A stretch of 64,000 nucleotides of DNA from an uncultured Alphaproteobacteria bacterium (GTDB taxonomy: Bacteria > Pseudomonadota > Alphaproteobacteria > JAPOUT01 > G958296285). Positions 6,339 to 56,194 of this stretch are shown one piece after another (position 1 is the stretch's first letter; each line of letters begins with the position of its first letter). The translations under genes were made by a program, and so were the position numbers. The stretch covers positions 1,282,762-1,346,761 of the forward strand of contig OY282459.1 in NCBI GenBank assembly GCA_958296285.1, in the 5' to 3' direction. Under the pieces are notes generated by a model, which made no database searches, was not told the origin of the DNA, and saw only the letters and a list, made by a program, of their open reading frames with translations.

Positions 6339-8231
6339 ATGCTGGATCGCCTCAGACGCGCCACCGCCCATTGGATGGCGCGCATTCTGATCGGATTGTT
6401 GGCGCTGAGTTTCGCCTTTTGGGGAGTCGGCGATCTTGTCGCGCCGTCTCGTGATCCGGCAATCGCCGAGGTCGGGGACGCCGTCATTCCGCAGACTGTC
6501 TTCCAGCGCTCGCTAAACATCCTCCGCGAAAATCTGCGACAGCAGGGGCGCGCCCTCGCTTTTGACGAAATCCGCCAACTCGGACTGGATCGGCAGGTTC
6601 TGAACCTGCTGACTCGTCAAGAAGCGCTGTCGCTCGGGGCGGCGGCGCTGGGTCTGGACATTTCAGACAGGCGAATCGCCGAGGAAATCCGCGATGATCC
6701 CGCCTTCCAAGGACCTTTCGGCGGATTTGATCGGCAGACCTTCCGCGTGATTCTCGCCGAAGCGGGCTTGAGCGAGCAGCGATTCGCCGAAGAGCGCCGC
6801 AAAGTGCATCTGCGCCGCCAACTCGCCGCGACTGTCCTCGCCTCGCCCCCCGCCTCCGATATTCTCGCCCGCGCGCTCATCAAGCACAGTTTGGAAAAGA
6901 GGATTTTGGAATATGCCCTCCTCCCGATCTCTCTCGCGCCGAAGCCAAAGAGCCCAAATGACGAAACGCTCAAAAAATTCCTAACCCGCGAGCCTTCTCT
7001 CTTCATTCGCCCTGAGCGGCGCGACATTCTTTTGTTGGAGCTGAAGCCGGAGCATTTTTTCTCGTCTCTCGCCGTCTCCGAAGACGAAATCCGCGCCGAT
7101 TACGACGAGCGGCGCATGAGTTTCCGAACCCCTGAAAAGCGCGAAGTAGAGCAAATCATCTTCGCCTCGCGCGATGAAGCCGATGCCGCCCATGCCCGCC
7201 TCAAGAAGGGCGTCTCTTTCGCCGCGATCGCCGGCGAGAAGGGTTTGTCGGAGGAAGATCGGAATCTGGGGCTTCTCTCTGAGCGGGAGTTTTTGTCGCC
7301 CTCTTTGGCGGAAGCGGCTTTCGCTCTCAAAAAGGGCGAAGTGAGCGCTGTCGTGGAGGGGCCTTTGGGGCCGGTTCTGCTGCGAGTTGCCAAAATCGCG
7401 CGAGGCGAGGAGCGAAGCCTCGCTTCCGTCCGCGATCGCGTCAGGAGAGACATTCTGCGCCGCAAATCCGCCGGCGAGATGGAGACCATGCGAAATATCG
7501 TGGAAGACGCGCTGGCAGGGGGCGCGTCTTTGCGCGAAGCGGCGTCTGATCATTCGCTGCCGATCTCGGAACTGAAGGGCGTCTCCGCCGATGGAACAAG
7601 CGCGAAAGGCGCGAAACTGCCCGAGAGGGAGGGGCTGCTTGCCGCCGCCTTCGCCGCCGCGGAACATGAAGAGAGCGCCGCGCGAGAAATGGAAGAGGGC
7701 GGATATTTTTGGCTGGAAGTGGAAAAAATCCATCCCTCGCGCATTCCGTCTTTTGACGAGATTAGGGACGAAGCGCGGAAAATCTGGCGGAAGGAAACGC
7801 GGCGTCTCGCTCTCATTCGGCTCGCGGCGGATCTTGCCGAGCGCGGAAATGGGGGCGAAGATTTGCGCGATCTTCTCAAGAAATATGACCGCGCGCCGTT
7901 GAAGACGCCCGAAATTGGTCGTTTTTTCCGAAGCGATGTTTTTTCGGCGGAGCTTGTGGAGGCGGCTTTCGCAAGACCCGAAGGTCGTTTTGTCGCCGGC
8001 TCTGCCGAGATCGGCGACAGCGTGGTTCTTGTTCGGACGGCGAAGATCGTCAAGCCCTCCCCTTCCCGCGAAGAGGAGAGCGCTTTTAGAGACGCGCTTG
8101 GCGCGCGCTTGGCGAATGAGTTTTTGGAGCAATATGTCGTTTTTCTTTTGGAGCGTTATGGCGTTGTCGTTCACGGCGATGTTTTGGAGAGCGCGGTTCT
8201 GTCTGGCGGCGGCGGCTTGCTCGCGCCATGA
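6339..8231 (+). CDS. ppiD: periplasmic chaperone / peptidyl-prolyl isomerase PpiD-like (SurA N-terminal domain family)
   Basis: MLDRLRRATAHWMARILIGLLALSFAFWGV N-terminal anchor, about 630 aa, located upstream of trpE. Start trimmed from 6168 to avoid overlap with tpiA. Confidence 0.75.
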   Translation: MLDRLRRATAHWMARILIGLLALSFAFWGVGDLVAPSRDPAIAEVGDAVIPQTVFQRSLNILRENLRQQGRALAFDEIRQLGLDRQVLNLLTRQEALSLGAAALGLDISDRRIAEEIRDDPAFQGPFGGFDRQTFRVILAEAGLSEQRFAEERRKVHLRRQLAATVLASPPASDILARALIKHSLEKRILEYALLPISLAPKPKSPNDETLKKFLTREPSLFIRPERRDILLLELKPEHFFSSLAVSEDEIRADYDERRMSFRTPEKREVEQIIFASRDEADAAHARLKKGVSFAAIAGEKGLSEEDRNLGLLSEREFLSPSLAEAAFALKKGEVSAVVEGPLGPVLLRVAKIARGEERSLASVRDRVRRDILRRKSAGEMETMRNIVEDALAGGASLREAASDHSLPISELKGVSADGTSAKGAKLPEREGLLAAAFAAAEHEESAAREMEEGGYFWLEVEKIHPSRIPSFDEIRDEARKIWRKETRRLALIRLAADLAERGNGGEDLRDLLKKYDRAPLKTPEIGRFFRSDVFSAELVEAAFARPEGRFVAGSAEIGDSVVLVRTAKIVKPSPSREEESAFRDALGARLANEFLEQYVVFLLERYGVVVHGDVLESAVLSGGGGLLAP

Positions 8232-9772
8232 GCGCCCCTTTCCCTGACGCCTCCGCTTTCCGCGACATTCACAATGCAGGCAAGACGCAGATCGTTCGGC
8301 TGACGCTGCCTGCCGATTTGGAAACGCCTGTCGCCGCGATGATCAAATTGGCGGCGGGGAAGCGCGGCGCGTTCCTTTTTGAATCGGTGGAGGGCGGAGA
8401 GGCTCGCGGACGCTATTCCGTCATCGGCTTCGCGCCGGACGCCATTTGGCGATCTTACGGCGCGAGATGCGAGATCAATCGGCAGGCGGCGCGAGACCCT
8501 GACGCTTTTGAGATTTTGAAAGAGCCGCCTTTGGACGCGCTTCGCCGTTTCATCGCGGAGTCGCGTTTTGATCTGCCTGACGGTTTGCCGTCTTTGTCGG
8601 CGGGTTTGTTCGGCTATATGGGCTACGACATGGCGCGTCATGCCGAGCGTTTCGGGTCTCCGCCGCCTGACGCGATTGGCATTCCGGACAGCGTTTTCGC
8701 GCGTCCGTCTCGTCTTGTGGTTTTTGATTCGGTCAGCGACACGATGATTTGCATTGTTCGCTCGTCTCCGCGCCGGGGGCGCTCGGCTGACGAGGCTTAT
8801 GACGAAGCCTGTCGCGCTTTGCGCGAGATGCGGACGGCTTTGCAGAGGCCTCTGATGCCGAAGGAGCGCGGCGAGGATAGCCAGAGCGATGAAGGCGATG
8901 AAAGCGGCGGGGGCGGCGCGTCTTCGTCTGTTTCCATGCCGGTGCCGCGGTCCAACATGCAGCGCGCGCTTTATTTGGAGAAGGTTCGGCGCGTTAAGGA
9001 GTATATTTTCGCTGGCGACATTTTTCAGGCTGTTTTGAGTCAGCGTTTTTCGGCGTCTTTTTCGCTTTCGCCCATGACGCTGTATCGGTCTTTGCGGCGG
9101 ATAAATCCGTCTCCTTATCTTTATTATTTGGATTTTGGGGATTTTTCGGTTGTTGGCTCAAGTCCTGAGATTTTGGTTCGGCTGCGCGAGGGCGTGGTGA
9201 CGATTCGTCCGATTGCCGGGACTCGTCCGCGCGGGGGGTCGGCGGCGGATGATCTTCGCATTGGCGAGGAGTTGTTGTCGGATCCGAAGGAGCGCGCCGA
9301 GCATTTGATGTTGTTGGATTTGGGTCGGAATGATGTTGGGAGGGTATCGGAGATTGGTTCTGTTCGCGTGACGGAGCGTTTCGCGCTGCAGCGGACGTCT
9401 CATCTCATTCACATTGTTTCCAATGTTGAGGGTGTTTTGCGGCGCGGTTTGGAGGCTTTGGACGCTTTGATGGCGGGTTTTCCTGCTGGGACGGTTTCGG
9501 GCGCGCCGAAGATTCGGGCGATGGAGATTATTGATGAGTTGGAGGATGAGAAGCGGAGTTTATATGCGGGGGCGGTGGGGTATTTTTCGGCGAATGGGGA
9601 TATGGACAGTTGCATTGCCTTGCGGACGGCGTTGGTTAAGGATGGGGTGATGTATGTTCAGGCGGGGGGTGGGATTGTGGCGGATTCGGAGCCTGCTTAT
9701 GAGTATCGGGAGTCTGTGAAGAAGGCGGAGGTTTTGTTTCGGGCTGCTGAGGCTGTTGGAGGCTCCCGTTGA
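8228..9772 (+). CDS. trpE: anthranilate synthase component I
   Basis: LFESVEGGE, GDIFQAVLSQRF, PYLYYLDFGDF, GTVSGAPKIRAMEIIDELE. Start overlaps the ppiD stop. The last 4 codons and the stop lie inside the repeat element. Confidence 0.95.
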   Translation: MSAPFPDASAFRDIHNAGKTQIVRLTLPADLETPVAAMIKLAAGKRGAFLFESVEGGEARGRYSVIGFAPDAIWRSYGARCEINRQAARDPDAFEILKEPPLDALRRFIAESRFDLPDGLPSLSAGLFGYMGYDMARHAERFGSPPPDAIGIPDSVFARPSRLVVFDSVSDTMICIVRSSPRRGRSADEAYDEACRALREMRTALQRPLMPKERGEDSQSDEGDESGGGGASSSVSMPVPRSNMQRALYLEKVRRVKEYIFAGDIFQAVLSQRFSASFSLSPMTLYRSLRRINPSPYLYYLDFGDFSVVGSSPEILVRLREGVVTIRPIAGTRPRGGSAADDLRIGEELLSDPKERAEHLMLLDLGRNDVGRVSEIGSVRVTERFALQRTSHLIHIVSNVEGVLRRGLEALDALMAGFPAGTVSGAPKIRAMEIIDELEDEKRSLYAGAVGYFSANGDMDSCIALRTALVKDGVMYVQAGGGIVADSEPAYEYRESVKKAEVLFRAAEAVGGSR

Positions 9773-10066
9773 GGGGGGTTTGGGGGGGCGGCGAGCCGCC
9801 GCGGGCATCTTTTTCATAGAGAGGCATTTTGGCTTTACCCCAGGGGAACTAATGCATAGAAGCTTGAGGTGAAGGGGGGGTTGGGGGGCTTGCCCCCCAA
9901 GAAAAACCAAGCGGGCGCAAGCCCGCTACGGGCGGCGGGCTTCTCGCGCACTTGCGCTACGCGCTGCGTGCGCTTCGTTGCGCCACGCCCGCCGACCTTT
10001 TCGGGGGGGATTCCCCCCGACCCCCCCTTTCTCAAGGGGGGCTAGCCCCCCTTGACCCCCCTCAAG
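9758..10066. repeat. Mosaic G/C-tract palindromic intergenic element, copy A (modules Y, Z-prime, X)
   Basis: Y 9758-9879 matches the reverse complement of 17449-17562. X 9998-10066 matches 17395-17454 in direct orientation and contains a perfect G6-CTAG-C6 palindrome at 10036-10051. Z-prime 9909-9994 holds nested hairpins (agcgggc-gcaa-gcccgct; ggcgggc...gcccgcc). Confidence 0.9.
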
Positions 10067-10084
10067 AGGTGCTATAGTCGCCCC

Positions 10085-10672
10085 ATGATCCTCCTCATAG
10101 ACAACTACGACTCCTTCACATACAACCTCGTCCATTTCCTCGGCGAACTGGGCGCCAAAACCAACGTCCAACGAAACAACGCCACATCAGCATCAAAAGC
10201 CCTCGCCAAAAAACCCCAAGCCATCATCATCTCCCCAGGACCCAAAACCCCAAACGAAGCAGGAATATCCCTAAATCTCATAAAAACCGCCGCCAAACAC
10301 AATATCCCAACCCTCGGCGTCTGCCTCGGACACCAAACCATCGGACAAGCCTTCGGCGCGAAAATCACCCGCGCCATCCCCACCCACGGCAAAATCAGCG
10401 CCATCAACCACAACAGCAAAGGAGTCTTCCAAAAACTCCCCTCACCCCTCCAAGCCACCCGATACCACTCCCTCATCATAGAAGAAAATACGCTGCCCCA
10501 ATGCCTCGCCATCACCGCGAGAACATCAGACGGAACAATCATGGGAATCCAACATAAAACCCTCAACGCCCACGGAGTCCAATTCCACCCCGAAAGCATT
10601 GAAACCGAACACGGACACAAAATCCTCCAAAACTTCCTCAAACTCGCAGGAATAAAAGGAATAAAAAAATGA
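10085..10672 (+). CDS. trpG: anthranilate synthase component II (glutamine amidotransferase, TrpG/PabA)
   Basis: MILLIDNYDSFTYNLVHFLGELG, GVCLGHQ, GVQFHPES. Start trimmed to the ATG at 10085. Confidence 0.9.
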   Translation: MILLIDNYDSFTYNLVHFLGELGAKTNVQRNNATSASKALAKKPQAIIISPGPKTPNEAGISLNLIKTAAKHNIPTLGVCLGHQTIGQAFGAKITRAIPTHGKISAINHNSKGVFQKLPSPLQATRYHSLIIEENTLPQCLAITARTSDGTIMGIQHKTLNAHGVQFHPESIETEHGHKILQNFLKLAGIKGIKK

Positions 10673-11694
10673 GCGAAAACCTCAAAAAAACCCTCGCGCT
10701 TATCGCGTCAGGCGAAAAACTCGCGCCCGCCCAAGCCGAAACCGCCTTCCAACATCTCATGTCCGGCGAAGCCAAAGACGCCGAAATCGGCGCGCTCCTC
10801 ATGGGACTCCATATGCGCGGCGAAACAACAGACGAAATCGCCGCCGCCGCCAAAATCATGCGCGCCGCCGCCACGCCCGTCCAAGCCCCGAAAAACGCCA
10901 TAGACCTCTGCGGAACAGGCGGCGATATGAAAGGAAGCCTCAATATCTCCACCGCCGCGTCTTTTATAGTCGCCGCCTGCGGCGTCCCGGTGGCGAAGCA
11001 CGGAAACCGCGCGCTCTCGTCTCAGTCAGGCGCGGCGGACGTCCTTTTGGCGCTCGGCGCTGAAACCGCCCTCCCGCCCCAGACCATCGCCCAATGCATC
11101 AAGGAAACGGGCATCGGCTTCCTCTTCGCGCCCTCGCACCACCCCGCCGCGAGACATGTCGCGCCGGCGCGCGCGGCGCTCGGCATCAGGACAATCTTCA
11201 ACCTCCTCGGACCTCTCTGCAATCCCGCCTTCGTCAAACGGCAACTGATCGGAGTCTTCGCGCCCGAATGGCTGACGCCCCTCGCCGAAGTGCTGCGCGA
11301 TTTGGGAAGCGAGCGCGTTTGGATCGTTCATGGCTCGGACGGGATGGACGAAATCACCCTTTCCGGCGAAACCCGCGCCGCCGAACTCAAAAACGGCAAA
11401 GTCCGCCCCTTCACGATCACGCCCGAAGAAGCAGGACTTCCTCGCGCTCCATCGGAGAGTCTCAAAGGCGGGACGCCTCAACAGAACGCGGCGGCTCTGC
11501 GGAGACTGTTGGACAGCGAAAGCGAAAACGGGGCTTATAGAGACGCTGCCGTTCTGAACGCGGCGGCGGCGCTCGTCATCGCGGAGAAGGCAGGAGATTT
11601 GCGCGAAGGCGCGGCGCAAGCCTCCGAATCTCTTTCCAGCGGACGCGCCGCCGACACCTTTCACGCCTTTCGCAATTTCACGAAGAAGCCATGA
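10669..11694 (+). CDS. trpD: anthranilate phosphoribosyltransferase
   Basis: DLCGTGGDMKGSLNISTAASFIVAACGVPVAKHGNRALSS. Confidence 0.95.
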   Translation: MSENLKKTLALIASGEKLAPAQAETAFQHLMSGEAKDAEIGALLMGLHMRGETTDEIAAAAKIMRAAATPVQAPKNAIDLCGTGGDMKGSLNISTAASFIVAACGVPVAKHGNRALSSQSGAADVLLALGAETALPPQTIAQCIKETGIGFLFAPSHHPAARHVAPARAALGIRTIFNLLGPLCNPAFVKRQLIGVFAPEWLTPLAEVLRDLGSERVWIVHGSDGMDEITLSGETRAAELKNGKVRPFTITPEEAGLPRAPSESLKGGTPQQNAAALRRLLDSESENGAYRDAAVLNAAAALVIAEKAGDLREGAAQASESLSSGRAADTFHAFRNFTKKP

Positions 11695-12503
11695 GGCATA
11701 TCCTCCAAACAATCCAAACCCGCAAGCGCGAGGAACTCGCCCGCGCGCGAAAAGACGCCCCCCCATCCGCGTTGGAAGCGCGGACAGGCGAAGCTCCCGC
11801 AATCCGTCTTTTCCGTGAATCTTTGGAAAAGAGGCGCGAGACAAGCCCCGCGATCATCGCCGAGATTAAAAAGGCGAGTCCTTCCAAGGGCGTCATCCGC
11901 GAGGATTTTGACCCCGCCGCTCTCGCGGAAAATTTGGAGAAAGGGGGCGCGGCGTGTTTGTCGGTGCTGACGGATAAGGATTTTTTTCAAGGCGCGGCGG
12001 AGCATCTTGGAGAGGCGAAAGAGGCGACCGCGCTCCCAATCTTGCGCAAAGATTTTCTGATAGACCCCTATCAGGCGCTAGAGAGCCGCGCTTGGGGCGC
12101 GGACGCCGTGTTGTTGATTATGGCTCTGCTGGAGCGCCAGCAAGCCGCCGAGATCGCCGCCGCCGCGAAGGAATGGGAGATGGACGTCCTCGCCGAAGCG
12201 CATGACGAGAAAGAGTTGGAAGAGGCGCTGCGCTTAGAACCCGACATGATCGGCATCAACAATCGGAATCTCAAAACTTTTGAAACCTCGCTGGATGTGT
12301 CTTTGCGTCTTGCGCGAGAGATTCCGCGAGACGCGCTCGCCATCGCCGAGAGCGGCATTGAGAGCCATGACGACATTTTGCGTCTTCAAGAGGCGGGGAT
12401 CCATTGCTTCCTCATCGGCGAAACTTTGATGCGCGCCGATGATCCGGCGCGGAAGATTCGGGAGTTGTTAGGAGAAGAGGATGAAGAAGACAAGCCATCT
12501 TGA
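11691..12503 (+). CDS. trpC: indole-3-glycerol-phosphate synthase
   Basis: IIAEIKKASPSKGVIREDF, LRKDFLIDPYQ, INNRNLKTFE. Confidence 0.95.
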   Translation: MRHILQTIQTRKREELARARKDAPPSALEARTGEAPAIRLFRESLEKRRETSPAIIAEIKKASPSKGVIREDFDPAALAENLEKGGAACLSVLTDKDFFQGAAEHLGEAKEATALPILRKDFLIDPYQALESRAWGADAVLLIMALLERQQAAEIAAAAKEWEMDVLAEAHDEKELEEALRLEPDMIGINNRNLKTFETSLDVSLRLAREIPRDALAIAESGIESHDDILRLQEAGIHCFLIGETLMRADDPARKIRELLGEEDEEDKPS

Positions 12504-14161: not shown

Positions 14162-14607
14162 AGCAGCCCCGCCTCCGTCAAAGCCGCGCGCAGCTCTTCG
14201 GGCATATCGTCCGACAAGCCCGCTCTTTCCAAATCGGGGGGCGCGTCTTTCGCTTCCAAATAGCGCCAGCCCTGAAAAGCGCGGCGCGGGAAGGGCTTCG
14301 TCAGAACGAGTTCCAAATCCAAATCCAAAAGACAGCGCTTCACGCCGTCTCGCCCCTTATGCGGACGAATATCCAGAATCCTCTGCCGCGCCGCGATGAC
14401 GCCCCGAAAAACCCAATAAAGAGAGCCGTTCCGCGGCGAGCCGCTCGCCAAAATCTCTTCGCGCCGCTTCGGCGTCATGCGCGTGATGTGGAAGAGTTCG
14501 GGCGACTGCCCTCTCGCTTTTTGAGAGGCGATCTCGTCTCGCTGCCATCGCGCGAGTTCGGCGGGCGACCCCACGCCCACGCACAATTTGACCAAATGCA
14601 GCGTCAT
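14158..14607 (-). CDS. DUF1489 family protein
   Basis: MTLHLVKLCVGVGSPAELARWQ N-terminus typical of DUF1489. Start trimmed from 14667 to the ATG at 14607, which removes the overlap with mgtE. Confidence 0.6.
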   Translation of the reverse strand: MTLHLVKLCVGVGSPAELARWQRDEIASQKARGQSPELFHITRMTPKRREEILASGSPRNGSLYWVFRGVIAARQRILDIRPHKGRDGVKRCLLDLDLELVLTKPFPRRAFQGWRYLEAKDAPPDLERAGLSDDMPEELRAALTEAGLL

Positions 14608-14614
14608 AAAGACC

Positions 14615-15985
14615 TCACAGCAGAAAATACGCCGCCAAGCCCAAAAAGGCGAAAAAGCCGACAACATCCGTGACTGTCGTCAAAAACACGCCGGACGAAA
14701 TGGCGGGATCGGCGCCGATTTTCTCTAATGCCAGAGGGATCAGAATTCCAGCGAGCGCGGCGGTCAGCATATTGACAATCACGGCGGCGAAAAGAACCAT
14801 CCCAAGCGCGAAATTCTTAAACCACGCGCCTCCAATCACCCCCAAAATCACGGCAAGCGATACGCCATTCAGAACTCCCACGCCGATCTCGCGCATGATG
14901 ATCCTGCGCTGATTCGCCGCGACAAGCTCGCGAGTCGCCAGCGCGCGCACGGCGACGGTGAGAGTCTGAATGCCCGCCACGCCTCCCATGGACGCCACGA
15001 TCGGCATCAGAACCGCCAGCGCCACCATTCCGGCGATCGCGTCCTCAAAAAGCGCGATGACGACAGACGCCAAAATCGCCGTCATCAGATTGACGAAGAG
15101 CCATAAAAAGCGTCTGCGCGCCGATTCCAGCACCGTGCCGGAGAGTCTGTCGCGTCCGACTCCGCCGAGCCTCTTGATGTCTTCGCTCGCTTCTTCGGTG
15201 ATGACTTCCACGATGTCGTCCGCCGTGATCATGCCCATCAGCATGCCGTTCTGATCCACGACGGGCGCGCTGACCAGATTATATCGGCGGAAGGCTTCGG
15301 CGACATCTTCGCGGTCTTTATGGGCTTCTATCTTGAGAGGCTCGCCCTGCATCAGGCTGTTCAGAGACTCTTCGCGCTTGGCGCGGACGAGGCGGCTCGT
15401 CAAGACGCTTCCGATGAGTCTCCATGTCGGGCTGACGATATAGATTTCGTAGAAATCCTTCGGGAGTTCGGCGCTTTGGCGCAGATGGTCTATGACGCGT
15501 CCTACGCTCCAGAAGGCGGGGACGGCGACCAGATCGCGCTGCATGAGGCGTCCTGCGCTGTCTATCGGGTAATCCAGTCCGCGCTCAATATCGGAGCGCG
15601 CGCGGAGGGGAACGCGATCTAGGATATTTCTTCGGCGGGTTTCGTCCAGCCCTTCCACGAGGGCGAGCGCGTCATCGGAGGCGATTGTGGCGAGGGCGGG
15701 CGCGAGTTTTTCGGGGGCGAGGAGCGGGAGGATATCGGCGAGGACGCCTTCTTCCAGTTCCGAGAGGATTTCGGGCTTGAGTTCGTCATTGAGGAGGGTG
15801 ATGAGTTTGTGTCGTTCTTCGGGTTTGAGGAGTTCTAGGATTTCGGCGGCGTCTGCGGCGTGGAGTTCGTGGATTTGGTTTTGGAGTTTCGCGCGATGTT
15901 CCGCGGTGATGGCTTCGCGCGTTTCTTGGAGGATATTTGGGACGGGCGTTTCGGTGGGTTCCGTGGTGTGGGGGGGATTAGACAT
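14615..15985 (-). CDS. mgtE: magnesium transporter MgtE
   Basis: N-domain, two CBS-like segments and a C-terminal TM domain (GGVAGIQTLTVAVRALA, DPAISSGVFLTTVTDVVGFF). Confidence 0.9.
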   Translation of the reverse strand: MSNPPHTTEPTETPVPNILQETREAITAEHRAKLQNQIHELHAADAAEILELLKPEERHKLITLLNDELKPEILSELEEGVLADILPLLAPEKLAPALATIASDDALALVEGLDETRRRNILDRVPLRARSDIERGLDYPIDSAGRLMQRDLVAVPAFWSVGRVIDHLRQSAELPKDFYEIYIVSPTWRLIGSVLTSRLVRAKREESLNSLMQGEPLKIEAHKDREDVAEAFRRYNLVSAPVVDQNGMLMGMITADDIVEVITEEASEDIKRLGGVGRDRLSGTVLESARRRFLWLFVNLMTAILASVVIALFEDAIAGMVALAVLMPIVASMGGVAGIQTLTVAVRALATRELVAANQRRIIMREIGVGVLNGVSLAVILGVIGGAWFKNFALGMVLFAAVIVNMLTAALAGILIPLALEKIGADPAISSGVFLTTVTDVVGFFAFLGLAAYFLL

Positions 15986-16033
15986 ACGCCGCGCCTTTTT
16001 TGCTTTTTTGTCTGTGGCGTATATTTAGCCTAT

Positions 16034-16076
16034 GGGGGCTGATTTATAAAAGCCCCCGACTCTTTTGGATCGGGGG
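16034..16076 (-). terminator. Three-arm alternative hairpin (terminator-like) between the DUF1640-like stop and the mgtE start
   Basis: Minus-sense RNA reads cccccga-N10-tcggggg followed by cuuuuau. The same G-tract can instead pair as gggggcu-N10-agccccc. Confidence 0.35.
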
Positions 16077-16096
16077 CGAGTTTGTGAGATTTTGTT

Positions 16097-16426
16097 CTAG
16101 GATGCTAATTTGAGAAGGATTGCGCCTGTCAGAGTGAAATTCGCTATCATGAAGGTGATGGTGACTCCGAACATCCATTTTAGCAGGCGCATGTCGGCTT
16201 GGACTTCTCCGAAGCGTTTTTCCATGTCTATTCTGAGTTCTCCGATCTGCGCGTTCATATCGGCGCGGAGTTCTCCGACCCGTTCTTCCACGTTCCGAAG
16301 CCGTTCTTCTATGTTCCGAAGCCGTTGCTCATCGCGGTTGGCTTCCAGCGCTTCTATAGCGGCGGTGGCTTTGTGATCGCTGACTTTCGCTTCTTTGAGG
16401 GCATCATAGACTGCGACGAGGCTCAT
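16097..16426 (-). CDS. coiled-coil membrane-anchored protein (DUF1640-like)
   Basis: 109 aa with heptad-like repeats (RLRNIEERLRNVEERVGELRADMNAQIGELRIDMEKRFGEVQADMR), then LKWMFGVTITFMIANFTLTGAILL as a C-terminal TM. GC lower than neighbours. Confidence 0.5.
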   Translation of the reverse strand: MSLVAVYDALKEAKVSDHKATAAIEALEANRDEQRLRNIEERLRNVEERVGELRADMNAQIGELRIDMEKRFGEVQADMRLLKWMFGVTITFMIANFTLTGAILLKLAS

Positions 16427-16496
16427 GGTTTATCTCCTTATGGTTGTGTTTTTGTAGCATTTTTGGTTCTTCTGCCGCAATCTTTAGAAGAAAGAA

Positions 16497-16657
16497 AAGG
16501 GGGGTGTGGGGGGTCGGAGACCCCCCGCGAAAAAGGGGGGATCGGGGGGATTCCCCCCCGAAAAGCGCGTGGGTGGGGTGGGGAAAAGAGCATTTGCGAG
16601 CGAAGCGTAAGCGTAGCGAGCAAATGCGACCCCACCCACGCGCCCCCTGCTCGCAGG
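16497..16657. repeat. Mosaic palindromic element, copy B (G/C-tract hairpins plus Z hairpin)
   Basis: 16543-16657 matches the reverse complement of 17289-17410. Z hairpin 16565-16643 has outer arms gcgcgtgggtgggg / ccccacccacgcgc and inner arms gcatttgc / gcaaatgc. Confidence 0.9.
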
Positions 16658-16672
16658 AGCTACTGATTCAGA

Positions 16673-17131
16673 TCAAAGATCGCCAAGCCTGCGCCGAAAC
16701 ACTTCATCAAACTTTTCTAATCTCTCCTTGAACCAAGCATATTGCGCGCATCTGTGGTTCATATTTTCCCAATCAGCTTCCTCTTCCCAGCTTTGGGTAA
16801 TAGATGGGAATCCCCATTGCAGTGGTGGAGGTGTGCCAATTTCCCTCTCAATGGCTTCTTTATCTGCATGCAGTTGGTTAAAACATTCCTTAGCGTAAAG
16901 CATGTCGGTGTCGGGGACAGGAAAACTTTTGCCATAGATAGAAAACCTAACAGCTACCTTGCGCGGCGGCGTCTTATAAAAACACGCCCATATGCGAAAG
17001 CCTGCTCTCCCCATAGAGAATCCTAGAGTGCTGCCAGACGACCGACAACGCCCGCGCCCAATATGTGAGTCAGACGCTCTGAGGCACTTAAGCAAACCTT
17101 GCCAATAGAGGCGGTGTTCTTCTTTAGACAT
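16673..17131 (-). CDS. hypothetical protein, DUF4268-like
   Basis: 152 aa, about 49% GC in a counted 100-nt window. Pattern LYWQGLL ... VRFSIYG ... FNQLHADKEAIEREIG..LQW ... W..FKERLEKF resembles DUF4268 from memory. No search was possible. Confidence 0.45.
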   Translation of the reverse strand: MSKEEHRLYWQGLLKCLRASDSHIGRGRCRSSGSTLGFSMGRAGFRIWACFYKTPPRKVAVRFSIYGKSFPVPDTDMLYAKECFNQLHADKEAIEREIGTPPPLQWGFPSITQSWEEEADWENMNHRCAQYAWFKERLEKFDEVFRRRLGDL

Positions 17132-17149: not shown

Positions 17150-17236
17150 TGGTGCGGTCGAGAAGACTCGAACTTCCACGGGGTTGCCCCCACAGCGCCC
17201 TCAACGCTGCGCGTCTACCTATTCCGCCACGACCGC
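17150..17236 (-). tRNA. tRNA-Leu (anticodon GAG), CCA encoded
   Basis: Reverse complement GCGGTCGTGGCGGAATAGGTAGACGCGCAGCGTTGAGGGCGCTGTGGGGGCAACCCCGTGGAAGTTCGAGTCTTCTCGACCGCACCA. 7-bp acceptor stem, anticodon loop TTGAGGG, long variable arm, GTTCGAGTC T-loop. Confidence 0.9.
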
Positions 17237-17288
17237 ATCCAAAACACAATTAGCAGAAATTAACCAACCCCTCAACCTCGCTAGAAAT

Positions 17289-17562
17289 CTTGCGAACAGG
17301 GGGCGCGTGGGTGGGGTCGCATTTGCTCGCTCGCTACGCCACGAGTGGCTTCTCTTCGCTCGCAAATGCTTTTTTCCCCACCCCACCCACGCGCTTTCGG
17401 GGGGATTCCCCCGAACCCCCTTTCTCAAGGGGGGCTAGCCCCCCTTGACCCCCCTTCACCTCAAGCTTCTATGAATTAGTTCCCCCTGGGGCAAACCCAA
17501 AATGCCTCTCTATGAAAAAAATGCCCGCGGCGGCTCGCCGCCCCCCCTTAACGGGAGCCTCC
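17289..17562. repeat. Mosaic palindromic element, copy C (modules Z, X, Y in inverted order)
   Basis: Z 17303-17394, X 17395-17454 (G6-CTAG-C6 at 17429-17444), Y 17449-17562. Y overlaps the last 4 codons and the stop of cysH. Confidence 0.9.
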
Positions 17563-18312
17563 ATGAATCCCGCACTCCTCCTTCTCTAAACCACCCCATC
17601 TACCATCACGATACGAACCCCCCGAACCAACAGAAGCCGTGCAAGGAACACACCCTATAGACAAATACCCACGCTTCACCAACGGATGAACAACCAAACT
17701 ATGCCGCTCAACATAAGAACCAAGAGCCTCCTGATCCCAATCCACAAGAGGATTAATGGAAAACCGCGCCACGCTCCCCGCCATCTCCCGAAACTCTATC
17801 GCCTCCAAAATCGCCCGACTCGCCGTCTGAAAACGCTTCCGACCCGTGATCACCGCCTCAAATCCCCCCAACGCCCGCCGCAACGGCAAAACCTTCCGAA
17901 AATGACAGCAAGCGTCAGGATCCTCGCTCCAAAGAGAACCATCCGAATCCAACCGCGCCCGATCCACAGGATCAGGACCAATGGAACGCAAATCCGTCAA
18001 ACCCAGCCGATCCTGCAATAAATCACGATAGCGAAGAGTCTCCGGAAACAACTTCCCCGTATTCAGAAAAATCACGGGAACAGACGGATCAATCTCCGAA
18101 ACCATATGCAGCAAAACCACCGACTCCGAACCAAAAGACGAAACCACCGCAATCCTGCCCGGAAAAACCTCCTTGATCATCGCCTCAAGAAGAGGCTTGC
18201 CGGACAGCGCATATTCACGCCGCAACATCTCAAGACGCGCCGCCGCCTCGGCAGGAACCTCCCCCGAAGCGCGAGGCATCGGAATCTCGGCGCGATTCTC
18301 TAAACCAGCCAT
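17548..18312 (-). CDS. cysH: phosphoadenosine-phosphosulfate (PAPS/APS) reductase
   Basis: SFGSESVVLLHMV, DPDACCHFRKVLPL, C-terminal EKEECGIH motif. Confidence 0.9.
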   Translation of the reverse strand: MAGLENRAEIPMPRASGEVPAEAAARLEMLRREYALSGKPLLEAMIKEVFPGRIAVVSSFGSESVVLLHMVSEIDPSVPVIFLNTGKLFPETLRYRDLLQDRLGLTDLRSIGPDPVDRARLDSDGSLWSEDPDACCHFRKVLPLRRALGGFEAVITGRKRFQTASRAILEAIEFREMAGSVARFSINPLVDWDQEALGSYVERHSLVVHPLVKRGYLSIGCVPCTASVGSGGSYRDGRWGGLEKEECGIHGGSR

Positions 18313-18845
18313 TTTTGATCCTCCATCATCGCGCGGCTTTTCTCACGGACAGCGCTCGGCGCTAATCCCTGATCGCGCCACCGATCCCGCGCCGCCGACA
18401 GCGCCAACAAACGATCGCGCCATTCCGCCCCATAATGGCGAGAGAGATCATCACGAAGCATCCGCGCCGCCGAAGGCGATCTGCCTCCGGTGGAAACGGC
18501 GAAAAGCAAATCCCCTCGCCGCAAAATGGACGGAACATGAAAATCGCACAAAGCCGGAATGTCTTCTGTGTTGACAAGAGCGCCGACAGCGCGCGCGCGA
18601 GCCGCGAGCGGACGGGCTTCCTCTTCCGAAAATCCCGCGATGAACAGAATCGCGCCGCGCATCTCCTCATCTTTCGGAAGACGCCGCCGAATCGGAAAAC
18701 TCATCAGAGCCTCACCGCGCGGCGCGTAGATTTCCGCCTCCATCTTTGCCGCTCCGATGAGCCGACAGCGTTTTAACAGCGGCTCGCCCTCGCCAATGAG
18801 GAGAATCTTTTTCCGATTCGGGTTAAGGACGATCGGCAGCATCAT
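18300..18845 (-). CDS. precorrin-2 dehydrogenase / sirohydrochlorin ferrochelatase-like (siroheme synthase N-terminal domain)
   Basis: KILLIGEGEPLLKR Rossmann-like start and LVNTEDIPALCDFHVPSILRRGDLLFAVSTGGRSPSAARMLRDDL, matching the CysG-N/SirC signature. Overlaps the cysH start. Confidence 0.7.
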   Translation of the reverse strand: MMLPIVLNPNRKKILLIGEGEPLLKRCRLIGAAKMEAEIYAPRGEALMSFPIRRRLPKDEEMRGAILFIAGFSEEEARPLAARARAVGALVNTEDIPALCDFHVPSILRRGDLLFAVSTGGRSPSAARMLRDDLSRHYGAEWRDRLLALSAARDRWRDQGLAPSAVREKSRAMMEDQKWLV

Positions 18846-18916
18846 GCCTATAATATCGGACTTGCGCGGACGAAAAGCAAGCGCCCCCCTGCCTCCCCTG
18901 CCCTATAGACAATGCG

Positions 18917-19531
18917 ATGATCCGTTGGCAAATCTCATCCGATCCCGTCTCTTATGGAGAATCTGTCGGCGCGATGGAAAGCCATGTCGGCGAAATGATC
19001 GCCGGGCGCGAGGGCGAGAAAATCTGGCTTCTTCAGCATCCGCCCCTCTACACGATCGGCGCGAGAACTCAATCTTCCGACATCCTCCATAAAAAATTCC
19101 CGATCCACAAAACGAGTCGCGGCGGTCTCGCCACCTATCACGGGCCTGGGCAGAGGGTCGTCTATCTGATGCTCAATCTCAAAGAAAGAGGCTTGAAAGC
19201 GCGCCCCTTCGTCCAAAAATTGGAGGACTGGCTGATCCTCGCCCTCGCCCGCCTCGGCGCGAAGGGAGAGCGCCGACATGACCGCATCGGAATATGGATC
19301 GCCGACAAAAGCCGCGAAGACAAAATCGCCGCCATCGGCATCCGCGTCAGACGCGGAATCAGTTTTCACGGCGTCAGCGTCAATGTGAATCCCGATCTCT
19401 CCCATTATGACGGCATCGTGCCTTGCGGAATAGCGCGGCATGGCGTCACGAGCCTCCACGCGCTCGGAATCCCCGCCTCCATGCGGGAGGTGGATCAAGC
19501 GCTCCAAGATTCCTTCGCGGACATCTTTTAG
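18917..19531 (+). CDS. lipB: lipoyl(octanoyl) transferase
   Basis: IWLLQHPPLYTIG, RGGLATYHGPGQ, KIAAIGIRVRRGISFHG. Confidence 0.9.
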   Translation: MIRWQISSDPVSYGESVGAMESHVGEMIAGREGEKIWLLQHPPLYTIGARTQSSDILHKKFPIHKTSRGGLATYHGPGQRVVYLMLNLKERGLKARPFVQKLEDWLILALARLGAKGERRHDRIGIWIADKSREDKIAAIGIRVRRGISFHGVSVNVNPDLSHYDGIVPCGIARHGVTSLHALGIPASMREVDQALQDSFADIF

Positions 19532-21522
19532 CCGAAGCGCAGAATCGGATCGTCCAGCGCGAGACTCTGTCCCTCCTCGCAGAAAATCTCTTTGACGACA
19601 GCGTCTTGCTCAGCGAAGAGGATGTTCTCCATCTTCATCGCCTCCACGACCGCGAGAGGCTGTCCCGCCTCCACGCGATCCCCCGCTTTGACATGAAGTT
19701 TCACGAGCTGCCCCGGCATCGGACAGAGAAGCCTGTCGGTCTTTTCCGAAGCCTCTCTCTTCGGCAGACGCGCTTCAAGCGCCGCCTGAAGCGGCGACAT
19801 CACCCGAAAGACGAACCGCGCCCCGCCATAGGACAGAATCCAAGATTGATCGCTGCGGCGAATCTGCATCAGAATCGTTCTGCCGTCCAGCTGACCGTGG
19901 AAAAGCCGCGCCCCAAACCGCCAATCGCTCTGAATCTTTCGCGTCAACCGTCCCGCGCCGTAGACGCTCGCGCCGTACGCCAAGCCCCCTTCCCTCTCCG
20001 AGACGGCGAATTCCTCGCGCGTCTCGCCTTCCATGACGGCAAGATGTTTCGGCATTCTCGCCCGCAATGGCAGCGCCGCCTCCTGACGCGCGCGCTTGAT
20101 GTTCTGCCATTCGGCGAAAAGCGCGACAGCGCGAGAATCTCTTCGCAAAACTTCCTCCTCCGTCTCGGCTTTAAAACCCTGCGGATATTCTTCTTCTATG
20201 AAAGATGTGGAGAGATCGCCCGCCGCGAAGCGCTTATGCGCGAAAATCGCCGACAGAAACAGACGATTATTCGGAAAGCCTTCCAACTCCAACCTCTCCA
20301 GCGCGGAGAGGATGGTTTTTCGCGCCGATTCCCTGTCCTCGCCCCAAGAGCAGAGTTTCATGATCATCGGATCGTAATAGACGCTGATCGCGTCTCCCTC
20401 TTCCACGCCGCTGTCTATGCGGACGGTCTGGCTCTCGTCAGGCGGACGGCAGCGCGAGAGCGTTCCGGTCTGAGGCAGAAAGCCGCGCTCAGGGTCTTCG
20501 GCGCAGAGCCGCGCCTCAAAAGCCCAGCCGGTGAAGCGGACGTCATTCTGCGTCAGACGCAGAGGCTCATCGGCGGCGATCCGAATCATCTCCTCCGCCA
20601 AATCCAATCCGGTGATGAGTTCGGATACGGGATGCTCCACTTGAAGCCGCGTATTCATCTCAAGGAAGTAAAAGACCTTATCCCGCCCGACCACGAACTC
20701 CACCGTCCCGGCGCTGTCATAGCCGACCGCCTTCGCCAACAGCAGCGCCTCTCTGCCCATCGCCTCGCGCATCGTCTTATTGAGCAGAGGGCTCGGCGCT
20801 TCCTCTATGATCTTTTGGTTGCGCCGCTGAATGGAACATTCGCGCTCGCCAAGATGAACGGCAGCGCCGCGCTTGTCGCAGAGAATCTGAATCTCAATAT
20901 GGCGGGGGTTCTCAATATATTTCTCCACGAAGACGCGCCCGTCTCCAAAAGACGCCTCCGCCTCGCGCCTCGCGGAAGCGGCAGCCTCAACGAGATTGTC
21001 GCCTTGACGCGCGATTCTCATGCCCTTGCCGCCGCCGCCCGCCGCCGCCTTGATCATCACCGGATAGCCTATCGTTTCGGCGATGGCGCCGATCTCGTCC
21101 GCGCTTGTCAGAGCGTCTTGATGGCCCGGGATCGTGGAGACGCCCGCCTTTTTCGCAAGAATCTTGGATTCAATTTTGTCGCCCATTCGCGCGATGGCTT
21201 CGGCGTTCGGTCCGATGAAAGCGATGCCTTCCCTCTCGCAATCTCTTGCGAAATCGGCGTTTTCGGAAAGGAAGCCATAGCCCGGATGAAGCGCTTCCGC
21301 GCCTGTCTGACGCGCCGCCTCCAAGATTTTCTCCCCGCGCAAATAGGATTCCGCCGCCGCCGCGCCCCCGATGAAAACCGCTTCATCCGCCATCGCGACA
21401 TGAAGCGCGCGGGAATCGGCGTCAGAATAAACGGCGACAGTCTTGACGCCCATCCGCCGCGCCGTCTTGATGACGCGGCAGGCGATCTCTCCTCGGTTGG
21501 CGATCAAAATCTTCTTAAACAC
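19528..21522 (-). CDS. pccA: propionyl-CoA (acyl-CoA) carboxylase alpha subunit: biotin carboxylase plus BCCP domain
   Basis: MFKKILIANRGEIACRVIKTARRMG, ATP-grasp motifs, C-terminal AVVEAMKMEN biotinylation site. Confidence 0.85.
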   Translation of the reverse strand: MFKKILIANRGEIACRVIKTARRMGVKTVAVYSDADSRALHVAMADEAVFIGGAAAAESYLRGEKILEAARQTGAEALHPGYGFLSENADFARDCEREGIAFIGPNAEAIARMGDKIESKILAKKAGVSTIPGHQDALTSADEIGAIAETIGYPVMIKAAAGGGGKGMRIARQGDNLVEAAASARREAEASFGDGRVFVEKYIENPRHIEIQILCDKRGAAVHLGERECSIQRRNQKIIEEAPSPLLNKTMREAMGREALLLAKAVGYDSAGTVEFVVGRDKVFYFLEMNTRLQVEHPVSELITGLDLAEEMIRIAADEPLRLTQNDVRFTGWAFEARLCAEDPERGFLPQTGTLSRCRPPDESQTVRIDSGVEEGDAISVYYDPMIMKLCSWGEDRESARKTILSALERLELEGFPNNRLFLSAIFAHKRFAAGDLSTSFIEEEYPQGFKAETEEEVLRRDSRAVALFAEWQNIKRARQEAALPLRARMPKHLAVMEGETREEFAVSEREGGLAYGASVYGAGRLTRKIQSDWRFGARLFHGQLDGRTILMQIRRSDQSWILSYGGARFVFRVMSPLQAALEARLPKREASEKTDRLLCPMPGQLVKLHVKAGDRVEAGQPLAVVEAMKMENILFAEQDAVVKEIFCEEGQSLALDDPILRFG

Positions 21523-21533
21523 CGCGCCCTCTC

Positions 21534-31623: not shown

Positions 31624-31922
31624 TTGGCGTCCCCTTCCACGATTCTGACCATATGAGCGACTTTGCGAATCTGTCCGCGCATTTCGGGGCAGTCGGCGAC
31701 CGCGCGGCGCTTTCCGATTCTGCCCAAGCCCAGCGCGCGGAGCGTTCTGCGCTGCGTTTGAGGACGCCGTATCGCGCTGGCATATTGCTCCACGACAAGA
31801 TGCGTCTTTTTTTCAGGCGGCTTTGTCTTGCTCGCGGGTTTTTTCACGGGCTTTTTCGCGGCGGGCTTTTTCACGACCGCTTTTTTCTTCGCGGCGGGCG
31901 TTTTTTTCTTCTCGGCGCTCAT
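31620..31922 (-). CDS. rpmD: 50S ribosomal protein L30 with about 40-aa Lys-rich N-terminal extension
   Basis: Core [34 protein letters not shown], preceded by [39 protein letters not shown]. Confidence 0.9.
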
Positions 31923-32140
31923 TTCTTCGCCTCTTTTGTCTTTTTCGCGGCTTTAGCCTTCGCATCCTTTTTGGCGGAGGCTGTCGCTTTTTTCACGGAT
32001 TTTTCCCTGCCCTTCTTCTCCGCCCCTTTTTTGGCGTCCTTCTTCTTGGCGTCTTTCTTTTTGGCGGAGGCGGGCGCGGCTTTCTTCCCCTGCGTCTTAG
32101 AGGCTTGCGTCTTAGAGGCGGGCGTCTCAGACTCAGGCGT
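31803..32140 (-). repeat. Continuous Lys/Ala-rich low-complexity coding tract across the rpsE-rpmD junction
   Basis: The S5 C-terminal tail and the L30 N-terminal extension abut each other. Contains 15-bp tandem duplications (for example 32091-32120). Confidence 0.8.
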
Positions 32141-56180: not shown

Positions 56181-56194
56181 GCTCTCTCTTCCCT

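What the first reader, a model, noticed from the sequence alone, without database searches (positions are those of the whole stretch)
9758..10066. Mosaic G/C-tract palindromic repeat family: three copies in 8 kb built from shared modules
Modules recognised by eye:
- Y, about 115-122 bp. 9758-9879 matches the reverse complement of 17449-17562 at roughly 90% identity with one 8-nt indel.
- X, about 60-70 bp. 9998-10066 matches 17395-17454. It carries a G6-7 ATT C6-7 hairpin and a perfect G6-CTAG-C6 palindrome.
- Z, an imperfect 80-92-nt hairpin at 16565-16643 and 17303-17394. A diverged Z-prime lies at 9909-9994.

There is no transposase, no regular spacing as in CRISPR, and no plausible coding capacity. 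The design recalls BIME/REP or RIME-type mosaic elements (established classes), but I do not recognise the sequence.
Basis: seen in the sequence. Interest (0 to 1): 0.6.

Follow-up and report, generated by a model that had tools for sequence, protein, structure and literature searches.

The report
Palindromic repeats with mirrored flanking skew
The mosaic G/C-tract palindromic repeats are real, and each repeat site lies at the centre of a 1-2 kb mirror-image mutational scar in the neighbouring genes, which is the pattern expected if these repeats are chronic DNA break sites.

Summary
Three composite loci, A 9758-10066, B 16499-16658 and C 17288-17562, share modules at 94-100% identity in both orientations. 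They fold far better than shuffles (z -6 to -7.7). They match no Rfam family and no plasmid repeat. A fourth locus lies about 680 kb away in a 99%-identical strain. There the full element is a ~300-nt near-perfect palindrome with ~65-nt terminal inverted repeats, so it is MITE-like.

Every element locus is the centre of a mirrored strand-composition gradient. On the strand whose 3' end points at the element, synonymous third positions are ~0.83-0.89 G+T for ~750 nt. They fall to baseline (0.52) by ~2 kb. This holds in all 6 flanks of 3 independent loci, whatever the gene orientation or replication direction. A syntenic relative without the elements has no skew.

The polarity, scale and C/A depletion match the 3'-ended single strands produced by resection at a two-ended break. 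They equally fit repair synthesis converging on the break. I infer chronic breakage at long palindromes, as with SbcCD-cleaved palindromes in E. coli. Confidence is about 0.5. No break, nuclease or mobilising gene was observed.

The parts
9758..10066 (.). Composite element A, between trpE and trpG. Order of parts: terminal GGAGGCTCCCGTTGA (the last codons and stop of trpE), G6TTTG7, module Y (9782-9880), hairpin G6CTTGC6 (9883-9898), REP-like hairpin GCGGGC-GCAA-GCCCGC-TAC (9911-9929), Z' hairpin (9930-9997), and the right terminal repeat X (9998-10066) with G7ATTC6 and G6CTAGC6.
16499..16658 (.). Composite element B: G6TGTG6 with the TCGGAGA-C6 hairpin, the G6ATTC7 hairpin and the long Z hairpin. 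It is inverted relative to element C.
   Evidence: (I3, I4, I5)
16673..17131 (-). Cargo ORF of 152 aa (DUF4268), ~50% GC, lying between B and tRNA-Leu. The close strain L013 has a GST gene here instead, so this cargo slot is variable.
17150..17236 (-). tRNA-Leu(GAG). It is ancestral at this site, because the element-free relative L015 also has it between mgtE and cysH.
17288..17562 (.). Composite element C: Z hairpin, X module, and Y in reverse orientation. Its end supplies the last codons and stop (GGSR*) of cysH.
7770..9772 (+). Left flank of A (3' part of ppiD, and trpE). The + strand is G+T-rich. The keto fraction at synonymous sites is 0.87 for 0-805 nt and then decays. GC skew reaches +0.47.
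10067..12070 (-). Right flank of A (trpG, trpD, start of trpC). The - strand is G+T-rich, so the + strand is C+A-rich. The keto fraction is 0.92 for 0-860 nt. GC skew reaches -0.48.
14500..16498 (+). Left flank of B (mgtE and a 109-aa coiled-coil ORF). The + strand is G+T-rich although mgtE is on the - strand.
17563..19560 (-). Right flank of C (cysH, the N-terminal domain of the siroheme synthase gene). The - strand is G+T-rich, with a keto fraction of 0.90 for 0-724 nt.

Best explanation
The G/C-tract modules are pieces of a MITE-like, non-autonomous palindromic element. In its complete form the element is ~300 bp, with ~65-bp terminal inverted repeats enclosing two or three internal hairpins. 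It sits at a few fixed sites in a small (1.72 Mb) uncultured alphaproteobacterial genome.

I infer that these long palindromes are chronic two-ended break sites. The likely cause is hairpin or cruciform cleavage by an SbcCD-type nuclease after replication, or an equivalent structure- or element-specific cut. The break is repaired from the sister chromosome.

During repair, the strand on each side whose 3' end faces the break is either exposed as single-stranded DNA by 5'-to-3' resection, or resynthesised toward the break from the invading 3' end, for ~0.7-2 kb. This strand therefore gains C>T and A>G changes, through deamination or through G.T mispairs that escape mismatch repair. Over evolutionary time, synonymous sites on that strand are driven to ~90% G+T. 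The result is a mirror-image skew centred on the element.

Repeated breakage with template switching among copies would also explain two further observations. The module mosaic differs between strains whose flanks are ~96-99% identical. The elements abut the last essential codons of their neighbouring genes.

Shown: the elements, the mirrored gradient, its independence from transcription and replication direction, and its absence where the elements are absent. Inferred: the break, the nuclease and the mutational chemistry.
For: 1. Mirrored gradient at every locus. The + strand is G+T-rich to the left and C+A-rich to the right of A, of B/C and of L016. The pooled keto fraction at synonymous third positions is 0.89, 0.85 and 0.83 over 0-750 nt, 0.74-0.70 over 750-1250 nt, 0.59 over 1250-2000 nt, and 0.52 beyond 2 kb. 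All 6 flanks behave alike.
2. Both transitions are driven. At two-fold sites T/(C+T) is 0.91 and G/(A+G) is 0.86-0.91, against ~0.45 and ~0.57 far away.
3. The sign does not depend on gene orientation. trpE, cysH and mutS point toward the element. trpG, mgtE and glnD point away. The skew magnitude is the same. Both flanks lie on one replichore. Highly expressed rpoBC, ribosomal protein and EF-Tu genes in the same window show nothing comparable.
4. A skew-switch statistic peaks inside the elements at 0.74 (window), 0.73 (L016) and 0.68 (L013), against an SD of 0.12-0.17. No comparable peak occurs elsewhere in ~110 kb.
5. The syntenic relative L015 lacks the elements and lacks the skew. Compared with L015, synonymous sites within 800 nt show C>T 66 against T>C 10, and A>G 80 against G>A 3, on the 3'-toward-element strand. 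Beyond 2 kb the counts are roughly balanced.
6. The interval between B and C, which is exposed from both sides, has no net skew.
7. The L016 element is a ~300-nt near-perfect palindrome, -124.9 kcal/mol, z -12.3.
8. Precedents. In E. coli a 246-bp palindrome is cut by SbcCD and repaired with DNA synthesis that restores the DNA lost at the break (PMC4752480). Human meiotic DSB hotspots show the same mirrored C>N / A>N asymmetry on the 1-2 kb of resected ssDNA, which lies left of the break on the forward strand and right of it on the reverse strand (PMC7615360).
9. The elements are structurally rearranged between strains whose flanks are ~96-99% identical.
Against: - No break, ssDNA or nuclease has been observed. 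sbcCD, addAB/recBCD, ung and error-prone polymerases could not be looked for, because only ~110 kb of the genome was accessible.
- Divergence between the two strains is not visibly higher in the skewed flanks. At compositional equilibrium only a ~2-fold excess is expected, so this test is weak.
- A>G is nearly as strong as C>T. Simple hydrolytic deamination of ssDNA would not predict this, and it favours the resynthesis variant or poor hypoxanthine repair.
- Other organisms' G/C-tract hairpin clusters show no flank skew. The effect therefore depends on this element or this host.
- Only three independent loci were available.
- Reverse causality, in which a pre-existing fragile site attracts the elements, is not excluded.
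Confidence: 0.5

Rival explanations
1. Paired single-strand nicks rather than a double-strand break. A trans-acting transposase or nickase (HUH/RAYT-like or other) nicks the same strand of each terminal inverted repeat, which places the nicks on opposite chromosome strands at the two ends. The 3' end on the flank side is chewed back or unwound, and is then resynthesised toward the element by a low-fidelity polymerase.
For: The terminal inverted repeats give natural mirror symmetry. The polarity and tract length would be the same as observed. The near-equal strength of A>G and C>T fits G.T misincorporation in a resynthesised strand. One module has a GTAG-type REP head.
Against: No transposase, RAYT or nickase gene occurs in the 64-kb window or in 45 kb of related loci. 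No target-site duplication is seen. There is no precedent for kilobase-long flank resynthesis by such enzymes.
Confidence: 0.17
2. Replication-fork stalling or uncoupling at the hairpin and G-tract structures, without breakage. Stalled forks leave persistent single-stranded gaps, or are restarted by error-prone synthesis next to the element. This resembles the 'mutation at a distance' caused by long G runs in yeast.
For: The elements are dense in G6-7/C6-7 runs and stable hairpins. In yeast, G13+ runs raise the substitution rate of surrounding DNA 4-18-fold (PMC4928981).
Against: This part of the chromosome is replicated in one direction, so a stall should give a one-sided or same-sign effect. 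The two flanks are instead equal and opposite. The G runs here are only 6-7 nt. G/C-tract clusters in other organisms have no skew.
Confidence: 0.1
3. An element-recruited DNA deaminase or other dedicated mutator. It loads at the element and tracks outward on the strand that ends 3' at the element. This would be a programmed, localised hypermutation system.
For: Synonymous sites are near saturation, and both amino bases (A and C) are lost. The plateau ends fairly sharply at ~720-880 nt in three flanks.
Against: There is no sequence-context signature and no candidate gene nearby. The affected genes are housekeeping genes (trp, cysH, mutS, glnD, mgtE), for which diversification has no obvious benefit. 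Conserved residues of TrpE are untouched.
Confidence: 0.06
4. Transcription-associated asymmetry, caused by transcription or R-loops converging on the element from both sides or diverging from promoters in its terminal repeats.
For: The terminal repeats carry outward-facing TTGACC boxes. Non-template strands are known to become G+T-rich (established knowledge).
Against: Outward transcription predicts the opposite sign. Inward transcription would require strong antisense transcription of trpG, mgtE and glnD. The magnitude is several-fold above that of rpoBC, ribosomal and EF-Tu genes in the same window.
Confidence: 0.03
5. Selection rather than mutation. The flanks would be selected to be G/T-rich on the strand ending 3' at the element, for example to carry Chi-like motifs that stop exonuclease coming from the element, or to avoid pairing with the G/C tracts.
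For: Known Chi sequences are G/T-rich and act on the 3'-ended strand (established knowledge). The elements abut essential codons.
Against: The skew affects essentially all synonymous sites over ~750 nt and also shifts amino-acid composition. That is far more than any motif requirement. No shared motif was found at the plateau boundaries.
Confidence: 0.03

Closest known systems
Bacterial MITEs and palindromic mosaic repeats: REP/BIME of enterobacteria, RIME of rhizobia, BOX, Correia, ERIC, RPE
   Same: These are short non-coding repeats with strong hairpin potential and modular or mosaic construction. They lie between convergent or tandem genes and carry no transposase of their own. Like RPEs, these elements can contribute codons to neighbouring genes.
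   Different: There is no sequence similarity to any Rfam family or plasmid repeat. The modules are dominated by G6-7/C6-7 tracts. The full element is a ~300-nt whole-element palindrome with ~65-nt TIRs. No TSD was detected. As far as I know and could find, none of the known families is reported to have a mirrored kilobase-scale skew in its flanks.
Engineered 246-bp interrupted palindrome in E. coli lacZ, cleaved by SbcCD and repaired by RecBCD/RecA/PriA (PMC4752480)
   Same: A long palindrome acts as a site-specific, replication-dependent two-ended break. It is repaired from the sister chromosome by DNA synthesis that restores the DNA lost around the break. This matches the polarity inferred here.
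   Different: That is a laboratory construct studied over hours. Here the palindromes are natural, and their effect is read as an evolutionary-scale compositional footprint. Cleavage here is inferred, not shown.
Strand-asymmetric mutagenesis at human meiotic DSB hotspots (PMC7615360)
   Same: There is mirror symmetry about the break. C and A are lost on the strand that is single-stranded after resection, which is the forward strand on the left and the reverse strand on the right. The scale is 1-2 kb.
   Different: In humans it is a subtle excess of de novo mutations at PRDM9/SPO11 sites. Here synonymous sites are near saturation (~90% keto), in a bacterium, around a palindromic repeat.
Strand-displacement gradient of vertebrate mitochondrial DNA, and chromosome-wide replication skew (own knowledge)
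   Same: Synonymous-site C>T and A>G accumulate on the strand that spends time single-stranded, in proportion to exposure. The leading strand is G+T-rich.
   Different: Those skews are organised by replication origins over whole replicons. This one is local (2-4 kb), centred on a repeat, and has the polarity of a terminus rather than an origin.

Membership tests
REP/BIME (RAYT-mobilised) | 20-40 nt imperfect palindrome with a conserved GTAG or CGTC head (PMC3733652) | tested here: inconclusive
   One small module reads GTAG-CGGGC-TTGC-GCCCG on the reverse strand of 9911-9929. The dominant G6-loop-C6 hairpins and the Z, Z' and Y modules have no such head.
REP/BIME (RAYT-mobilised) | A RAYT (TnpA-REP) gene in the genome, flanked by REPs | not testable with these tools
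   None is present in the 64-kb window or in 45 kb of related loci. The rest of the 1.72-Mb genome could not be read.
MITE (non-autonomous TIR element) | Terminal inverted repeats and a size of 50-500 bp | tested here: met
   The L016 element is ~300 nt. Its outer ~65 nt pair end to end. The window loci carry the same terminal module (X) at A-right and in B and C.
MITE (non-autonomous TIR element) | Direct target-site duplication | tested here: not met
   The junctions read ...GTTGA|GGGGGG ... CCCCCC|TCAAG. This sequence is inverted and extends the palindrome. It is not a direct duplication.
MITE (non-autonomous TIR element) | A parent IS with matching TIRs | not testable with these tools
   No IS is present in the accessible sequence.
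RIME (Rhizobium intergenic mosaic elements) | Sequence similarity to RIME1 or RIME2 | tested here: not met
   This is an indirect test. Sensitive blastn (word size 11) against 72,556 plasmids, which I assume (not checked) include rhizobial replicons carrying RIMEs, found only a 33-nt hairpin in Helicobacter plasmids. No RIME consensus was available for a direct test.
Known RNA families (Rfam 15) | A covariance-model match at or above the gathering score | tested here: not met
   Only tRNA-Leu passes. The elements give sub-threshold chance hits of 17-23 bits against cut-offs of 35-59 bits.
Structure-induced break site (SbcCD-type palindrome) | A long inverted repeat able to form a hairpin or cruciform | tested here: met
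   DNA folds: L016 -124.9 kcal/mol (z -12.3), A z -7.3, B z -7.7, C z -6.0.
Structure-induced break site (SbcCD-type palindrome) | Demonstrated cleavage and a hairpin nuclease in the host | not testable with these tools
DSB-centred strand-asymmetric mutagenesis | Mirror-image loss of C and A on the 3'-ended strand over 1-2 kb on both sides | tested here: met
   Six of 6 flanks show it. It is absent in the element-free ortholog.

The most novel reading that the evidence does not exclude
Natural palindromic MITE-like elements act as permanent, site-specific break-and-repair hotspots in a bacterial chromosome. They would be a prokaryotic counterpart of meiotic recombination hotspots. Repair at these sites is so frequent or so error-prone that it overrides replication and transcription as the determinant of local base composition. 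It rewrites ~90% of synonymous sites, shifts amino-acid usage for 1-2 kb on each side, and erodes neighbouring genes down to their last essential codon. The mirrored skew would then be a purely computational read-out of in vivo break sites and resection or resynthesis tract lengths in uncultured bacteria. A more radical version is that the element recruits a dedicated nuclease or mutator.
Probability: 0.45. Interest if true: 0.85.

Novelty: new variant of a known kind. Interest (0 to 1): 0.78.

Why it matters
Bacterial strand skews are normally attributed to replication and, weakly, to transcription. Here a third, local cause dominates. A repeat element is tied to a skew several-fold stronger than the replication skew of the same chromosome.

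If the break-repair reading is right, three things follow.
1. Fragile sites and repair-tract lengths could be read directly from genome sequences of uncultured bacteria.
2. Small palindromic repeats would be shown to impose a heavy, directional mutational load on neighbouring housekeeping genes, here trpE/G/D, cysH, mgtE, mutS and glnD.
3. There would be a natural system in which to ask whether ssDNA damage or error-prone resynthesis is the main mutagen of recombinational repair.

It also warns that codon-usage or skew anomalies near repeats need not mean horizontal transfer.

Tried and rejected
- A genome-contig scan with AAGGGGGGCTAGCCCCCCTT found 12 unrelated short hairpins, without the element's other modules or any strong flank skew. 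The source species is not among the representatives.
- Scans of metagenome contigs (74 loci) and viral contigs (22 loci) with the terminal signature found other kinds of G/C-tract hairpin clusters. These share only the short motif and have no flank skew. No further family members were found.
- A six-frame chimeric 'protein' of the elements, used as a query, was swamped by low-complexity candidates. It returned one hit, which fortunately led to locus L016.
- Exact-protein look-ups to extend the sequence beyond the window failed or returned the same region.
- Divergence between the window and L013 as a function of distance from the elements showed no clear excess in the flanks. The pattern is patchy and recombination-like, so the test is not decisive.
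- Polarising changes at conserved TrpE residues against 119 homologues showed no directional signal, so the effect is mainly synonymous there.
- The neighbour-base context of the residual C and A showed shifts in all contexts and no enzyme-like motif.
- A search for a shared Chi-like motif at the plateau boundaries found only generic GC-rich k-mers.
- A second skew switch at 32169 turned out to be Lys-rich tails of ribosomal proteins, not an element.
- Transcription, replication direction, horizontal transfer and assembly error were considered as causes of the skew and rejected. The grounds are the sign of the skew, its symmetry, the synteny with L015, and agreement among three independent assemblies.
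- The comparison of L015 with the window at synonymous sites is saturated. It therefore shows net direction only, and cannot separate C>G transversions from two-step paths.
Full report
**Observation**

The window is ~59% GC. The trpE-trpG spacer (9758-10066) and the two sides of a tRNA-Leu gene (16499-16658 and 17288-17562) carry dense G6-7/C6-7 tracts and nested hairpins.
- Y: 9782-9879 matches the reverse complement of 17449-17547 at 94.9% over 99 nt.
- X: 10023-10062 equals 17416-17455, 40/40.
- Z: two arms at 94-95% link 16555-16658 with 17288-17404.

As single-stranded DNA the loci fold with z-scores of -6.0 to -7.7 against dinucleotide shuffles. Rfam 15 recognises only the tRNA. Sensitive blastn (word size 11) against 72,556 plasmids finds only a 33-nt hairpin. 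No transposase is nearby.

**Anatomy and relatives**

The source is an uncultured alphaproteobacterium. TrpE has a 98%-identical copy on a 1.72-Mb ENA contig (loci L013 and L014). The next relative is only 64% identical (L015).

In L013 the same two sites carry elements built from the same modules but assembled differently. For example, site A lacks Y and has Z. The flanks are meanwhile ~96-99% identical.

A chance protein hit led to a third site on that contig, ~680 kb away, between mutS and glnD (L016). There the element looks complete. It is ~300 nt long. Its ~65-nt terminal inverted repeats each contain G6-loop-C6 hairpins, and they enclose the Z' and Z hairpins. The whole folds as one long palindrome (-124.9 kcal/mol, z -12.3).

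The element end CTCCCGTTRA-G6 recurs at four junctions. It supplies the last codons and the stop (GGSR*) of both TrpE and CysH, replacing their native tails directly after conserved residues.

L015 is fully syntenic but has a 45-bp trpE-trpG spacer, and only tRNA-Leu lies between mgtE and cysH. The elements are therefore insertions. The cargo gene next to the tRNA is also an insertion: DUF4268 in the window, a GST in L013.

No solitary G-loop-C hairpins occur outside these composite loci in ~110 kb.

**The unexpected feature**

Composition profiles show that each element locus is the centre of a mirror-image gradient.
- Left of A and of B, the + strand becomes G+T-rich. GC skew reaches +0.47 and +0.35, with AT skew about -0.3 to -0.4.
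- Right of A and of C, the + strand becomes C+A-rich. GC skew reaches -0.48 and -0.40.
- The skew decays over 1-2 kb.
- L013 and L014 show the same pattern. L016 shows it at its own site, +0.45 left and -0.40 right.
- L015, which has no elements, shows nothing. Its |GT skew| is at most 0.20 everywhere and below 0.13 at the orthologous junctions.

A switch statistic (GT skew of the 600 nt to the left minus that of the 600 nt to the right) peaks inside the elements at 0.74, 0.73 and 0.68, against an SD of 0.12-0.17. The only other modest peak is a pair of Lys-rich ribosomal protein tails.

**Codon-level analysis**

Baseline four-fold sites are A .08, C .42, G .35, T .15.
- In the last 700 nt of trpE, cysH and mutS, where the coding strand is the strand ending 3' at the element, they are A .01-.02, C .08-.14, G .49-.57, T .30-.42.
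- In trpG/trpD and mgtE, where the coding strand is the other strand, the complement is seen. In trpG the values are A .29, C .65, G .05, T .00.
- Pooled over six flanks, the keto fraction on the 3'-toward-element strand is 0.89, 0.85 and 0.83 over 0-750 nt, 0.74-0.70 to 1250 nt, 0.59 to 2000 nt and 0.52 beyond.
- At two-fold sites T/(C+T) is 0.91 and G/(A+G) is 0.86-0.91.

Three flanks show a plateau ending at ~720-880 nt. The others end at ~1400-1700 nt.

Amino-acid composition is shifted in the same direction. Highly conserved TrpE residues are spared.

Compared with L015, at identical amino acids within 800 nt of an element, the counts are C>T 66 against T>C 10 and A>G 80 against G>A 3. 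Beyond 2 kb the counts are roughly balanced. This comparison is saturated, so it shows net direction only.

**Interpretation**

- The skew is not transcriptional. Genes pointing toward and away from the element are equally affected, outward transcription predicts the wrong sign, and the very highly expressed genes of the same window show no such skew.
- It is not the replication skew. Both flanks lie on one replichore.
- It is not foreign DNA. The genes are syntenic orthologues.
- It is not an assembly artefact. Three assemblies agree and the ORFs are intact.

The strand that loses C and A is, on each side, the one whose 3' end faces the element. That strand is the one left single-stranded by 5'-to-3' resection of a two-ended break at the element. 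It is also the one extended toward the break from the invading 3' end during recombinational repair.

Human meiotic hotspots show the same geometry, scale and base classes (PMC7615360). In E. coli a long palindrome is a replication-dependent SbcCD break site that is repaired by DNA synthesis restoring the DNA lost at the break (PMC4752480).

I therefore propose that these long palindromic elements are chronic break sites, and that the skew is the accumulated footprint of their repair. Several other observations fit this:
- The B-C interval, which would be exposed from both sides, has no net skew.
- The module mosaics are rearranged between near-identical strains.
- The cargo next to the tRNA has been swapped.
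- The flanks are eroded down to essential codons.

Whether the mutagen is ssDNA deamination or mismatch-repair-free resynthesis cannot be decided. The near-equal strength of A>G and C>T leans toward resynthesis or toward poor hypoxanthine repair.

**Limits**

- Only three independent loci (six flanks) and ~110 kb of this lineage were accessible.
- No nuclease, repair gene or mobilising gene could be examined.
- Between-strain divergence is not clearly raised in the flanks.
- G/C-tract hairpin clusters of unrelated organisms have no skew, so the effect is specific to this element or this host.
- Paired nicks at the inverted repeats, fork stalling, or a recruited mutator remain possible.

**Comparison and novelty**

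As repeats, these are a new MITE-like, mosaic palindromic family. They resemble BIME, RIME or BOX elements in design, but they are not members by sequence, and they lack the REP head in most modules.

I found no report of a saturating, mirrored, kilobase-scale skew centred on such elements in bacteria (literature searches). Mechanistically it would be a natural, evolutionary-scale version of known break-associated strand-asymmetric mutagenesis. I therefore rate it as a new variant of a known kind, with high interest.

Noticed in passing
window 16673-17131 and L013 18764-19438: The slot between element B and tRNA-Leu holds different cargo genes in two near-identical strains: a DUF4268 ORF (~50% GC) in the window and a GST gene in L013. 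The element-free relative L015 has only the tRNA at this position.
   Followed up: partly
window 9758-9772 and 17548-17562: TrpE and CysH both end in an element-encoded GGSR*. This replaces their native C-terminal tails immediately after conserved residues (for CysH, after ...ECGIH). In L016 the mutS stop codon lies directly against the element terminus.
   Followed up: yes
window 10062-10087; L016 10330-10348: trpG and glnD start 6-7 nt after a TGnTAnAnT extended -10-like box. For trpG there is also a TTGACC -35-like box inside the element end. This suggests element-borne promoters and possibly leaderless mRNAs.
   Followed up: no
window 16097-16426; L013 17878-18395: A small membrane-anchored coiled-coil ORF of 109 aa lies next to element B. 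In L013 it is followed by a second, 61-aa partial copy. Its skew is weaker than that of the neighbouring mgtE, so it may be a more recent arrival.
   Followed up: partly
window 55422-56330 (repeats at 55964-56144): NusG is 302 aa long. It has a ~125-aa N-terminal extension made of degenerate 9-27-nt tandem repeats, Gly/Glu/Pro/Ala-rich as read on the minus strand.
   Followed up: partly
window 58254-63992: A giant ORF of more than 1912 aa runs off the window end. It has ~590-nt internal repeats and a subtilase (Peptidase_S8) domain.
   Followed up: partly
L033, L059, L020, L038, L046 and others (JGI sample Ga0214919); L096 and L106 (viral contigs): Unrelated organisms carry clustered G6-loop-C6-TTGACCCCCC hairpins, for example GGGGGGCAGTCTGCCCCCCTTGACCCCCCTCATTAAATGAATAATTTTAT in tandem-like arrays. 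They have no flank skew and may be a separate, undescribed repeat family.
   Followed up: partly
window 19423-21537: A 704-aa ORF on the + strand has no Pfam hit. In L015, the only locus that reaches the orthologous region, minus-strand biotin-carboxylase genes occupy it, so this ORF is probably a shadow ORF.
   Followed up: no
window 31800-32170: A local T-rich stretch (GT skew +0.34) comes from Lys/Ala-rich tails of two minus-strand ribosomal protein genes. It mimics a skew switch but is unrelated to the elements.
   Followed up: yes
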